This document shows, one piece after another, positions 9,001 to 12,000 of a stretch of DNA of 24,009 nt. Position numbers: made by a program. This DNA is from a virus (taxonomy: Duplodnaviria > Heunggongvirae > Uroviricota > Caudoviricetes): IMG/VR virus record IMGVR_UViG_2880406838_000007; one strand, written 5' to 3'. Numbering within the stretch: position 1 is the first letter of the stretch; every line of letters starts with the position of its first letter.

Positions 9001-12000
9001 TGTTAGTAACGGCCTGAGCGTTCCGCCAGTCCGGCGACAACTGGCGGCCCCCAAACGCCCGTCGGGGCCAACGCCAATTGAGTTGCTGAAACAGGAATAT
9101 GAACGCCGGAAAGCGGCTGGTTTTGTTTGAGTTGAGAAGTGATTTTTTACCGGGAGGAAATTTATGGAGACTGTTTTTGACGCACTGAAAGCGATGGGAA
9201 AAGCCACGTCGGTAGAGCTGGCTGCGCGACTTGATATCAGTCGTGAAGAAGTACTGAACGAGCTGTGGGAACTGAAAAAGGCTGGCTTCGTTGATAAAAG
9301 AGTATACACCTGGCGTGTGGCTGATAACAACGTTCAGCAGGAACAGCCAGCGCCAGAAGAAACCACCACGGCAACAGAAGCGAAAATCTCAGAGTGCGAT
9401 TTAACCGCGACGATTGAACAACGCGGACCACAAACGGCGGATGAACTGGCTACGCTGTTCGGTACAACATCCCGCAAAGTTGCTTCAACGCTGGCAATGG
9501 CAATCAGCAAAGGTCGTCTGATTCGCGTAAACCAGAACGGTAAAATTCGTTACTGCATACCAGGTGATAATTTACCAGCAGAGCCGAAAGTTGAATCGGT
9601 AGCGGAAACCGATGGTAAAGCCTTTCCTCAGCCAGCCGGTGTTGCGTTACCGGTACAGAAAGATGCAACACAGGAAGATATTAAAACAGAAACTGTGGCG
9701 GACATTGTGCAGTCGCTGCCATCGTTTACTGCAACGCGAGAAGATGATTTGATTTTGCCATCGCTGCATATGGCAAATCGCGAACTGCGTAGGGCGAAGA
9801 ATCATGTCCAGAAGTGGGAGCGAGTCTGCGCCGCGCTGCGGGAGCTGAACAAGCACCGGGATATGGTTGCCGGGATTTGTCGGAAGTCCGGGCAATGAGC
9901 GGATGGTGCAGGCCTGAAATCATGATACTAACAATGAAGGTAAAATGCATCGGCAGTCTGATTGGTCGTAGTGAGGCGGCGGTCAGGATGAAAGCCCAGG
10001 TTAAGGGAATAAGCCTGATTCTGCGGGGTGATTTTCACCAGTCAACAAAATATCCGTAGCGCGATAACGGTCAAAAATTATGGCGCTGACACTTTTGTGC
10101 CACTGGAGATGACTGTACCTAAGTTCAGGGGAGAAGAACACGTCCGGTGGGATGGTCGGGCCAGATTTAAAGGGCAGGTCATGGCTCCAGCCTGTACGCT
10201 GGCAATGGAGGCTGCCTGGCGGGAAATTGATATGGGAACCACGCCACTCAGGGATTTACTGCCGGTCCAGAGAATAAATTCCTGTTACGGTTACACCACT
10301 GTGATCTTGCAAGTGCAGGAAAGTAGGTCTACACGGTAACGCGAGTGCGTGTAACTTTTGATGTCATTCCCGTAGAAACACCGGACAAATTTTCGCTGAC
10401 AGGTCATGCAGAAGGTATAAATCTGCAGATTATGGACAATTACGGATATCCGGCAAGAGCCGGAAAAAGCATGCCGCCTCTAATTCTCAGTGGAAGATGG
10501 ACTTGATTATACTCATTGCATTGTCAGAAATAGTTATCCATTAAAGGCTGGCTATTCCAAACAGGATGTTGATTACAAAAATGTAATCAACATGTAAGGT
10601 TTATACTCTTCAATATGCGTATAATTTTCCTTATTTTGTTGACTTTAAATAACAAGCTATGCACGAGGTAAAGTCGGATAAGTTTATCTGGATGTAATAT
10701 ATATTATTTGTAGTGTTTATAACTTTATTTCATGATAACCAATAAAAGGAGTTTTTTATGAGGAACATAATGGCAGGTTTTTTAATATTCCTGTCTTCTG
10801 CTGCTTATGCTGATATCAATCTGTATGGTCCTGGTGGCCCGCATACAGCCTTGCTTGATGCAGCCAAACTTTATGCCGAAAAAACAGGTATTATAGTGAA
10901 CGTTCATTACGGCCCACAGAACAAATGGAATGAAGATGCCAAAAAAAATGCAGATATCTTGTTTGGCGCATCAGAACAATCTGCTCTGGCTATCATTCGG
11001 GACCATAAAGACAGCTTCAGTGAAAAAGATATTCAGCCTCTTTATCTGCGAAAAAGTATTTTACTGGTAAAGAAAGGTAATCCTAAAAATATCCGGAGTA
11101 TTGACGACCTGACCAGACCTGGGATTGGCGTAATTGTTAATGATGGTGGTGGTACCAGTAATACATCAGGCACTGGCGTCTGGGAAGATATTGCCGGACG
11201 TAAAGGGAATATAGAAACTGTCGCCGCAATCCGAAAAAATATTATTTTATATGCGCCCAATAGCGGAACTGCACGTAAGGCTCTTGAGAATCAGCCTGGA
11301 GCAGATGTCTGGATAACCTGGGCTGACTGGGCAGCCAGTAATCCAGAAATTGGTGATGTCGTGGAAATAGCGCCAGACTACGTGATATGGCGTGATATGA
11401 ACATTACAGTACGTCAGGATGCAAATGATGAAACCCGTCGATTTGCAGAATGGCTACAAACCGATGAAGCGGCGCCTGCATTCAAAAAATATGGCTGGAC
11501 CAGGAAAGGCACTTGACATCCTCGTCCTTCAGGACGTGGATTCTTTTTCCGGATGCCGCGCCAGCGGCATGTAGGGGCAGCTCACAAAACGGAAAAAATT
11601 GTACGCTAAGCCTCGCCAGGTGAACTGAATTCATTCCGATATGGGAATTCCCATATCGGGCGAAAACGGTTTGCTGTAACGGCAGAGTTAAGTAGGATTG
11701 CTGCGGGTGCTTGAGGCTATCTGCCTCGGGCATGAACACCAACGGCAGATAGATAAAAGCCCCACCCGACTATAAATCGAAGTGAGGCCCCTATATGCTC
11801 GTCACATATAGATTGCCTCTTACGGACCGAAAGGTCAAGGAGAAGCAGGCTATGAAGCAGCAAAAGGCGATGTTAATCGCCCTGATCGTCATCTGTTTAA
11901 CCGTCATAGTGACGGCACTGGTAACGAGGAAAGACCTCTGCGAGGTACGAATCCGAACCGGCCAGACGGAGGTCGCTGTCTTCACAGCTTACGAACCTGA

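What the first reader, a model, noticed from the sequence alone, without database searches (positions are those of the whole stretch)
10560..11550. AT-rich ModA-like periplasmic binding protein moron upstream of hokD, where Qin carries relBE
A secreted solute-binding protein (signal peptide, ModA/tungstate-like type-2 binding-protein pattern) encoded as a stand-alone gene in a prophage, with no cognate permease or ATPase in the window. It has its own AT-rich upstream region and terminator, which suggests horizontally acquired cargo. Its role (metal scavenging, or a receptor/decoy function) is unknown.
Basis: partly seen in the sequence, partly recalled or inferred. Interest (0 to 1): 0.45.

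Follow-up and report, generated by a model that had tools for sequence, protein, structure and literature searches.

The report
Known EHEC colonisation gene paa (adfO)
The gene is paa (also called adfO), an already described adherence and colonisation factor of enterohaemorrhagic, enteropathogenic and pig enterotoxigenic E. coli: a secreted binding-protein-fold protein related to Campylobacter PEB3 and Vibrio cholerae AcfC, not a molybdate-binding protein, so the finding is real but ordinary.

Summary
An intact 252-aa ORF lies at 10758-11516 (+). It has a Sec-type signal peptide, a strong ribosome-binding site, a 26% G+C upstream region and a hairpin plus T-run after the stop. No ABC permease or ATPase lies anywhere in the window.

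The gene is not new. It is 100% identical to RefSeq WP_001449026.1, "AcfC family adhesin Paa". This is paa/adfO (z2053) of O-island 57 / CP-933O in O157:H7, and the hok gene downstream is "ckf" (z2054). The CDS occurs in 610 of 5426 complete E. coli genomes. Diverged alleles (86-89% nt) sit on IncF plasmids, mostly from pig E. coli, one next to the enterotoxin gene sta1.

It is 54% and 52% identical over its full length to the crystallised proteins PEB3 and AcfC. It matches Pfam SBP_bac_11 but falls far below the ModA and sulfate-binding-protein cut-offs.

Relatives in 24 loci from several phyla also lack a linked ABC ATPase, so being an orphan is a family trait.

The mechanism is unsettled in the literature. 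My best inference is a periplasmic anion-binding sensor or co-receptor rather than an uptake component or an anchored adhesin.

Novelty: already known. Interest: low.

The parts
10554..11576 (+). The paa cassette: the block shared between this prophage and paa-bearing IncF plasmids (86-89% nt identity). It contains the upstream control region, the CDS and the 3' hairpins.
   Evidence: blastn of plasmid loci L003 and L004 against the window; alignments of both edges
10566..10593 (.). Perfect 12+12 inverted repeat ATGTTGATTACA-AAAA-TGTAATCAACAT at the left edge of the cassette. A 16-nt core, ATTACAAAAATGTAAT, is invariant in all three alleles; the outer arm bases vary. It is a candidate operator or transcript hairpin; its function is not tested.
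   Evidence: the 22-nt core TTGATTACAAAAATGTAATCAA is unique in the window, with 0 of 100 shuffles matching
10621..10626 (+). TATAAT hexamer conserved in all three alleles. It is a candidate -10 element with no good -35. The consensus scan did not call a promoter here.
   Evidence: sequence; alignment A2; scan negative for 10598-10757
10746..10751 (+). Shine-Dalgarno AAGGAG, 6 nt upstream of the ATG
   Evidence: sequence; conserved in the plasmid alleles
10758..11516 (+). paa / adfO CDS, 252 aa, AcfC/PEB3-family binding-protein-fold protein (WP_001449026.1)
10758..10811 (+). Sec-type signal peptide, residues 1-18, with predicted cleavage AYA|DI
   Evidence: sequence; start of the crystallised PEB3 constructs; family N-termini
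11157..11174 (+). Codons for S134-N135-T136-S137-G138-T139. N135-T139 are invariant in all 21 family members. T136/S137 align with PEB3 T138/S139, the ligand-site residues.
   Evidence: the role of PEB3 T138/S139 is from my recollection of Min et al. 2009, which is cited but was not re-read here
11518..11551 (+). Hairpin (11518-11541) plus U-rich tail, 2 nt after the stop codon: a plausible intrinsic terminator
   Evidence: the 5' arm is deleted in plasmid allele pCFS3246-1, so it is not universally conserved
11553..11570 (+). Second G+C-rich hairpin, ATGCCGC-GCCA-GCGGCAT. Its stem is conserved in all three alleles. It marks the right end of the cassette.
   Evidence: sequence; alignment A3
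10064..10597 (+). Neighbour, not part of paa: a frameshifted PapH-like fimbrial minor-subunit pseudogene. Homology to the intact gene ends at about 10556, where the paa cassette starts.
11705..12007 (+). Neighbour: a hok/sok/mok locus. The sok/mok regulatory region is 11705-11854 and hokD ('ckf', z2054) is 11852-12007.
   Evidence: Rfam sok at 103.9 bits; Pfam HOK_GEF; annotation; literature

Best explanation
This is paa (synonym adfO, z2053), the 'porcine attaching-and-effacing associated' colonisation factor. It is carried as a roughly 1-kb self-contained cassette in the early-right region of a degraded, Qin-related lambdoid prophage inserted in ydfJ (the OI-57 / CP-933O type element of EHEC).

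Shown here:
- The gene is intact, under purifying selection and widespread in EHEC.
- It encodes a Sec-exported, cysteine-free, soluble class II binding-protein-fold protein. It is 54% identical to C. jejuni PEB3 and 52% identical to V. cholerae AcfC, with the family's ligand-cleft motifs intact.
- Like every relative examined, it has no linked ABC transporter.

Inferred mechanism: after export to the periplasm the protein closes around a small anionic ligand. The candidate ligands are phosphorylated three-carbon acids as for PEB3, or sulfate/sulfated sugars as proposed for AcfC. It then acts through a membrane partner supplied by the host, most likely a chemoreceptor or another signalling protein. 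Loss of the gene would then lower adherence and colonisation indirectly, through mis-directed taxis and altered secretion or expression, rather than because a bridge to the host cell is missing.

My confidence differs by layer. Identity as paa is about 0.98. That it is not an ABC uptake component is about 0.8. The sensor/co-receptor mode over direct adhesion is about 0.45-0.5.
For: Identity:
- 100% nt identity to paa in O157:H7, O26, O103, O111 and O145 chromosomes, annotated 'AcfC family adhesin Paa'. The same gene is annotated in PPompW prophages.
- The literature equates adfO (z2053) with paa and places it with ckf in OI-57.

Fold and family:
- Pfam SBP_bac_11, E = 5.5e-34.
- PDB PEB3 (3fjg, 2hxw) and AcfC (4jb7), E about 1e-81 over the full length; 54% and 52% identity.
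- 56 positions are invariant across 21 homologues and are concentrated in the motifs YGPGGPH, GPQ..W, ADILFG.S, SNTSGT.VWED..GR, PNSG and D.WITW.DW.

Functional gene: dN/dS 0.07-0.13. It is transcribed, and induced in rumen and rectum contents, in EDL933.

Orphan status:
- No ABC-ATPase-like ORF within 3 kb in 24 loci. These span Enterobacterales, Aeromonas, Vibrio, Campylobacter/Helicobacter, Francisella, Cetobacterium, Mucispirillaceae, Desulfovibrio, a spirochaete and Endozoicomonas.
- No neighbour is conserved across taxa.

Sensor mode:
- AcfC fractionates to the periplasm. The acfC deletion mutant loses chemotaxis to mucin, adheres to cells normally, and AcfC expressed in E. coli gives no adhesion.
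- acfC lies directly after the chemoreceptor gene acfB (dCache + HAMP + MCPsignal).
- The Endozoicomonas homologues follow an ECF sigma/anti-sigma pair.
- The adfO mutant is pleiotropic, with reduced adherence and reduced release of several proteins.
- PEB3 is described as a binder/transporter of 3-phosphoglycerate-type metabolites and is needed for chick colonisation.
Against: - The primary Paa literature (Batisson 2003, seen here only through citing papers) treats Paa as an adhesin needed for attaching-and-effacing lesions.
- AcfC binds immobilised heparin, chondroitin sulfate and mucin in ELISA. That fits direct binding to host glycans as well as it fits sensing.
- No membrane partner for Paa is known in E. 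coli, and none is encoded next to it.
- The linkage to signalling genes is seen in only two lineages.
- No ligand has been determined for Paa itself.
- I could not inspect three-dimensional ligand contacts with these tools.
Confidence: 0.6

Rival explanations
1. Direct adhesin. Paa reaches the cell surface or the medium, for example by type II secretion or by leakage, and physically bridges the bacterium to sulfated glycans or mucins on enterocytes. This would promote the early attachment that precedes intimin-mediated attaching-and-effacing lesions.
For: This is the name and role given in the literature and in RefSeq. The adfO mutant adheres less to HeLa cells. AcfC binds heparin, chondroitin sulfate and mucin in ELISA. 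paa travels with other adhesion cargo: a fimbrial pseudogene lies next to it here, and it sits on plasmids of pig enterotoxigenic strains.
Against: The mature protein has no cysteine or lipobox, no membrane anchor and no beta-barrel or passenger domain. By fractionation AcfC is periplasmic, and the same paper describes PEB3 as a periplasmic glycoprotein; AcfC confers no adhesion when expressed in E. coli. The family's most conserved residues are the cleft motifs of a small-molecule binder.
Confidence: 0.25
2. Uptake component. Paa is an accessory substrate-binding protein that docks on a permease encoded elsewhere in the chromosome, in the way Sbp and CysP share CysUWA. It would scavenge an oxyanion or phospho-metabolite such as sulfate, molybdate/tungstate or 3-phosphoglycerate.
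For: It has the binding-protein fold, with weak local similarity to sulfate- and thiosulfate-binding proteins and to ModA. [quoted passage not shown]
Against: Scores are far below every ModA, Sbp and CysP cut-off. No ABC ATPase is linked in any of 24 loci from very different hosts. A cassette that moves between phages, plasmids and phyla could not count on finding a compatible permease in each host. No growth or uptake phenotype is reported for Paa.
Confidence: 0.12
3. Inert passenger. The gene is a decaying remnant in a defective prophage, with no current function.
For: The prophage is heavily degraded: IS1203 truncation, several pseudogenes and a frameshifted cro-like gene. The adjacent fimbrial gene is a pseudogene.
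Against: The ORF is intact and at least 99% identical in 563 genomes of several EHEC lineages. dN/dS is 0.07-0.13. Transcription is regulated in gut contents and mutant phenotypes are published.
Confidence: 0.02

Closest known systems
Paa / AdfO of attaching-and-effacing and enterotoxigenic E. coli (z2053, OI-57 / CP-933O; WP_001449026.1)
   Same: It is the same gene: 100% nucleotide identity, the same prophage context with the hok-type gene 'ckf' immediately downstream, and the same RefSeq protein accession.
   Different: Nothing differs at the gene level. The host prophage in this window (O111-type) differs from the O157:H7 PV15-279 copy in IS1203 positions and in the late region.
PEB3 (Cj0289c) of Campylobacter jejuni, PDB 2hxw, 3fjg, 3fir
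   Same: 54% identical over the whole mature protein. It has the same signal-peptide/mature junction and the same cleft motifs, including T138/S139 (Paa T136/S137). It is also an orphan and also a colonisation factor.
   Different: The PEB3 N-glycosylation sequon (DFNVS) is absent in Paa (DSFSEK). PEB3 is chromosomal and regulated by BumSR, whereas Paa is phage- or plasmid-borne. No ligand is known for Paa.
AcfC (VC_0841) of Vibrio cholerae, PDB 4jb7
   Same: 52% identical (47% by the authors' ClustalW alignment), with the same architecture. It lies on a horizontally acquired island (VPI-1) and is needed for normal intestinal behaviour of the pathogen.
   Different: acfC sits directly after a chemoreceptor gene (acfB); paa has no such neighbour. 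AcfC was shown not to mediate cell adhesion, whereas Paa is reported to do so.
ModA and Sbp/CysP oxyanion-binding proteins of ABC importers
   Same: The same Pfam family (SBP_bac_11) and class II binding-protein architecture. There is weak local similarity around the anion-binding helix N-terminus.
   Different: Scores are 3- to 15-fold below the family cut-offs. There is no adjacent permease or ATPase genes. The conserved motif set is different.

Membership tests
AcfC/PEB3/Paa family | Full-length sequence similarity to the founding members PEB3 and AcfC | tested here: met
   phmmer against PDB: PEB3 E = 1.2e-81 (query 11-248) and AcfC E = 3.5e-81 (query 16-248). Identity is 54% and 52%. The protein is an exact match to RefSeq 'AcfC family adhesin Paa'.
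AcfC/PEB3/Paa family | Cleavable Sec signal peptide followed by a mature N-terminus [DE][IV]N[LM]YGPGGPH | tested here: met
   MRNIMAGFLIFLSSAAYA|DINLYGPGGPH. YGPGGPH is invariant in all 21 homologues, and in the 18 outside Endozoicomonas the leader ends directly before the motif. The crystallised PEB3 constructs start at or next to the aligned residue. Cleavage itself was not tested experimentally.
AcfC/PEB3/Paa family | Conserved ligand-cleft residues (PEB3 T138/S139 in the NTSGT motif) | tested here: met
   Paa T136/S137 align with PEB3 T138/S139. The numbering is anchored by the K135/E135 difference between chains 3fjg and 3fir. N135-T139 is invariant in all 21 family members. The functional role of these residues comes from my memory of Min et al. 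2009.
AcfC/PEB3/Paa family | Stand-alone gene without a cognate ABC permease or ATPase | tested here: met
   None in the 24-kb window. None within 3 kb in 24 homologous loci.
AcfC/PEB3/Paa family | Contribution to adherence or intestinal colonisation | not testable with these tools
   Reported for paa/adfO, peb3 and acfC in the literature. The primary papers (Batisson 2003, Ho 2008) are not held in the library.
ModA (molybdate/tungstate-binding protein) | Score above the curated cut-off of the ModA models | tested here: not met
   TIGR01256 scores 18.3 bits against a cut-off of 62.5. NF002920, NF002918 and NF007958 score 12-18 bits against cut-offs of 253-470. Only short terminal stretches match. 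No ModA structure appears among PDB hits at E <= 0.01.
ModA (molybdate/tungstate-binding protein) | Operon with the modB permease and modC ATPase | tested here: not met
   The flanking genes are a fimbrial pseudogene and hok/sok. No ABC signature was found in the window.
Sulfate/thiosulfate-binding proteins (Sbp, CysP) | Score above the curated cut-off of the Sbp/CysP models | tested here: not met
   NF008022 scores 22.6 bits against 288, TIGR00971 scores 21.5 against 155.5, and NF008106 scores 19 against 308. PDB 1sbp, 6ddn and 5um2 match only at E = 1e-4 to 1e-3 over about 100 residues.
Phage moron (self-contained cargo cassette in a prophage) | Own expression signals, atypical base composition, and presence or absence independent of the phage backbone | tested here: met
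   The upstream region is 26% G+C against 48% for the window. The cassette has its own SD and 3' hairpins. The same 1.0-kb block is on IncF plasmids in unrelated contexts. It is absent from the related K-12 prophage Qin. Promoter activity was not tested, and the consensus scan found no strong promoter.

The most novel reading that the evidence does not exclude
Paa-family proteins are not adhesins at all. They are mobile 'plug-in' periplasmic sensors: an orphan binding protein, spread by phages, plasmids and islands among gut-associated bacteria of several phyla. It captures a host- or microbiota-derived anionic metabolite, such as 3-phosphoglycerate, PEP or a sulfated sugar. It then docks on a resident chemoreceptor or signalling protein and so retargets the recipient bacterium to a mucosal niche. 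The adherence defects of paa/adfO mutants would then be secondary effects.
Probability: 0.3. Interest if true: 0.5.

Novelty: already known. Interest (0 to 1): 0.1.

Why it matters
As a discovery it does not matter. The gene has been named since 1999-2003, is in RefSeq under its own name, and is used as a marker of O-island 57 in risk typing of Shiga-toxin-producing E. coli.

What remains open is the mode of action. The protein has the anatomy of a soluble periplasmic small-molecule binder, yet it is filed as an adhesin. Its two crystallised relatives point in different directions: phospho-acid binding and uptake for PEB3, and mucin chemotaxis for AcfC.

The comparative result obtained here is a modest, testable pointer towards a sensory role. 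The family is an orphan in every lineage examined, and where any linkage exists it is to signalling genes.

Tried and rejected
**Literature not available.** Batisson 2003 (PMC166039), Rangarajan 2007 (PMC2206636), Ho 2008 (doi 10.1128/IAI.01688-07) and Selvaraj 2015 (PMC4872866) are not held. Statements about them rest on citing papers or on my memory and are marked as such.

**Promoter and terminator scan.** No sigma-70-like site was called between the fimbrial pseudogene and the ATG. Terminator-like sites are not enriched over shuffles. The 'own promoter' therefore remains inferred from a conserved TATAAT and the conserved upstream block.

**Search for a conserved partner gene.**
- An ABC-ATPase motif search in 24 loci found none within 3 kb.
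- All-against-all clustering of neighbours found no family shared across taxa.
- The large neighbours (950, 928, 1219, 911, 898 aa and others) were read. Going by their sequences they look like unrelated housekeeping, restriction or autotransporter genes; they were not run against Pfam.

**Fimbrial pseudogene.** I considered that it and paa might form one imported unit. This was rejected: homology to the intact fimbrial gene ends at about 10556, and the plasmid copies of paa start at 10554-10564 without the fimbrial sequence.

**Palindrome at 10566-10593.** I considered an FNR-type site (TTGAT...ATCAA). This was rejected because the half-sites are 12 nt apart, not 4.

**Searches not run.** I did not run structure prediction, fold search or the large protein-database searches. 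Solved structures at 52-54% identity already fix the fold, and those searches would not have changed the verdict.
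Full report
**1. What is in the sequence**

The region 10560-11550 holds one intact ORF, 10758-11516 on the + strand, 252 aa.

- It is preceded by AAGGAG 6 nt upstream of the ATG.
- The 160 nt before the start (10598-10757) are 26% G+C. The CDS is 44% (GC3 35%) and the whole window is 48%.
- The N-terminus MRNIMAGFLIFLSSAAYA|DINLYG has the form of a Sec signal peptide with A-x-A before the cleavage point.
- The protein has no cysteine, so it is neither a lipoprotein nor disulfide-anchored.
- Two nucleotides after the stop lies a hairpin (11518-11541) followed by UUCUUUUU. 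A second G+C-rich hairpin lies at 11553-11570.
- The terminator call is plausible but not statistically distinctive: 3 sites were found in the region against 2.5 expected from shuffles.
- No consensus sigma-70 promoter was called upstream of the gene, although a TATAAT at 10621-10626 is conserved among alleles.

**2. Identity**

Megablast against 5426 complete E. coli genomes gives 100% identity to a gene annotated 'paa: AcfC family adhesin Paa' (WP_001449026.1). It occurs in O157:H7, O26, O103, O111 and O145 chromosomes.

- The CDS alone is found in 610 genomes, 563 of them at 99% identity or more. There are 581 chromosomal and 36 plasmid copies.
- The whole 24-kb window is identical to E. 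coli O111:NM strain 14614 and relatives.
- The same gene is annotated 'porcine attaching-effacing associated protein Paa/adherence factor' in PPompW prophages.
- Reviews and genomic papers equate paa with adfO (z2053) of O-island 57 / CP-933O in EDL933. They note that it always travels with ckf (z2054), the hok-type gene that lies downstream here.

The finding is therefore a rediscovery of a named virulence-associated gene.

**3. Family assignment**

Pfam places residues 20-247 in SBP_bac_11 at E = 5.5e-34. This confirms the periplasmic binding protein superfamily.

The specific ModA idea fails.
- The ModA equivalog TIGR01256 scores 18.3 bits against a cut-off of 62.5.
- The sulfate- and thiosulfate-binding models score 19-23 bits against cut-offs of 155-308.
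- All of these matches cover only short stretches.

Against solved structures, the full-length matches are C. jejuni PEB3 and V. cholerae AcfC.
- PEB3 (3fjg, 3fir, 2hxw, 3fj7) has E about 1e-81. AcfC (4jb7) has E = 3.5e-81.
- Sulfate-binding proteins appear only at 1e-4 to 1e-3, and no ModA appears.
- Identity is 54% to PEB3 and 52% to AcfC.

Across 21 homologues from diverse bacteria, 56 positions are invariant. They are concentrated in the motifs YGPGGPH, GPQ..W, ADILFG.S, SNTSGT.VWED..GR, PNSG and D.WITW.DW.

PEB3 T138/S139 align with Paa T136/S137 inside the invariant NTSGT. I recall from Min et al. 2009 that these are the ligand-site residues; that paper is cited but was not re-read. The numbering is anchored by the K135/E135 difference between the two PEB3 chains. 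The PEB3 N-glycosylation sequon is absent from Paa.

**4. The cassette and its surroundings**

The window is a degraded lambdoid prophage.
- It runs from an integrase (1-1131) to a truncated ydfJ (22726-24009). ydfJ is the gene that Qin interrupts in K-12.
- It shares 73-95% identical blocks with Qin.
- IS1203 has removed most late genes, and nleG7 is present.

paa lies after the replication genes.
- The order is replication protein P, a DUF1627 gene, a small ORF, a frameshifted fimbrial pseudogene (10064-10597), paa, and then a hok/sok locus.
- Homology to Qin runs from the nin-region genes up to 11838, about 14 nt before the hok start at 11852.
- In K-12, relE and relB follow directly.
- Here a complete sok/mok regulatory region lies at 11705-11854 (Rfam sok, 103.9 bits against a gathering score of 59).

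The paa block itself is mobile.
- IncF plasmids, mostly from pig E. coli, carry alleles that are 86-89% identical in DNA and 92-93% identical in protein. One lies next to sta1 and another next to repA.
- The shared block is 10554/10564-11576.
- Its left edge is a perfect palindrome, ATGTTGATTACA-AAAA-TGTAATCAACAT, with a 16-nt core conserved in the plasmid alleles.
- dN/dS between prophage and plasmid alleles is 0.07-0.13.

The fimbrial pseudogene is separate cargo.
- It is 85% identical to the second gene of a pap-type chaperone-usher operon in other E. coli.
- That homology ends at about 10556, just where the paa block begins.

**5. Is the orphan state special?**

A scan of one genome per species found 25 loci.
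- The hosts are E. albertii, Citrobacter, Edwardsiella, Aeromonas, V. cholerae, Campylobacter, Helicobacter, Francisella, Cetobacterium, Mucispirillaceae, Desulfovibrio, a spirochaete, Endozoicomonas and Elioraea.
- In 24 usable loci, no ORF with a Walker A plus ABC signature lies within 3 kb of the homologue.
- No neighbouring gene family is shared across taxa.
- The only suggestive linkages are to signalling genes. In V. cholerae the gene directly follows acfB, a dCache-HAMP-MCP chemoreceptor. In Endozoicomonas it follows an ECF sigma/anti-sigma pair.

Being a stand-alone binding protein is thus a property of the whole family, not of this prophage copy.

**6. How it most likely works**

Shown:
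- The gene is intact, conserved and transcribed. EDL933 induces it in rumen and rectum contents.
- The product has a signal peptide and the fold and cleft motifs of a small-anion binder.
- It has no anchor and no transporter.

From the literature:
- adfO mutants adhere less to HeLa cells and release less of several proteins.
- paa is linked to attaching-and-effacing lesion formation.
- AcfC is periplasmic and binds sulfated glycans in ELISA. It is needed for chemotaxis to mucin but not for adhesion, and it does not make E. coli adhesive.
- Peb3 is treated as a binder/transporter of 3-phosphoglycerate-type compounds and is needed for chick colonisation.

I weigh these as follows.
- A periplasmic ligand sensor or co-receptor acting through a resident membrane protein is the best fit (about 0.45-0.5).
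- A surface-exposed adhesin for sulfated glycans comes second (about 0.25).
- An accessory binding protein for a chromosomal ABC permease comes third (about 0.12).
- A dead passenger gene is effectively excluded.

None of these can be settled by sequence analysis. The decisive experiments are listed separately.

**7. Verdict**

The gene is already known as paa/adfO. Interest is low. The only residual value is the unresolved mechanism of a family filed as adhesins while looking like periplasmic sensors.

Noticed in passing
window 10064-10597: Frameshifted pseudogene with an internal stop, for a PapH-like fimbrial minor subunit, inside the prophage. It is 85% identical to the second gene of an intact pap-type chaperone-usher operon in other E. 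coli chromosomes (L030, next to pgtAB). That homology stops at about 10556, exactly where the paa cassette starts, so two unrelated pieces of adhesion-related cargo abut here.
   Followed up: partly
window 10566-10593: Perfect 12-bp inverted repeat with a 4-nt spacer (ATGTTGATTACA AAAA TGTAATCAACAT) about 165 nt upstream of the paa start. A 16-nt core is conserved in the plasmid-borne alleles, and the 22-nt core is unique in the window. It is a candidate operator for an unknown regulator.
   Followed up: partly
window 11636-11659: Perfect 24-nt palindrome CCGATATGGGAATTCCCATATCGG, centred on an EcoRI site, in the 130-nt spacer between the end of the paa cassette and the sok/mok region. Its function is unknown.
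   Followed up: no
window 11705-12007: The hok gene here ('hokD'/'ckf') keeps a full sok/mok regulatory region (Rfam sok, 103.9 bits). The homologous K-12 Qin copy is joined to relBE about 14 nt upstream of the hok start and lacks that region.
   Followed up: partly
window 12016-12097: Weak isrK-like Rfam match (24.9 bits, below the gathering score of 50). It overlaps the strong terminator-like hairpin at 12076-12093 downstream of hok. It is probably just the terminator.
   Followed up: no
window 1-24009: The window is a degraded lambdoid prophage running from its integrase to a truncated ydfJ, the gene that Qin interrupts in K-12. IS1203 (18293-19506) truncates the late region. The prophage has several pseudogenes (a cro-like gene, terB, a DUF6645 gene), tRNA-Ile and tRNA-Arg (15138-15377), and the type III effector gene nleG7 (21106-21756, - strand).
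   Followed up: partly
L017 6073-7953 and 8001-8726; L027 893-3191: In V. cholerae the paa homologue acfC lies 48 nt after acfB, a dCache-HAMP-MCP chemoreceptor gene. In three Endozoicomonas species the homologue follows an ECF sigma factor and a zf-HC2 anti-sigma factor, and precedes a Lipoprotein_15-repeat protein. These are the only recurrent linkages found for the family, and both are to signalling genes.
   Followed up: partly
L005 8001-8762: In Escherichia albertii the paa homologue (87% aa identity) lies in a non-prophage chromosomal context, beside ORFs that resemble the N-acetylgalactosamine PTS/aga genes (judged by eye from the translations, not searched) and a DUF302 gene. The gene is therefore not tied to phages even within Escherichia.
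   Followed up: no
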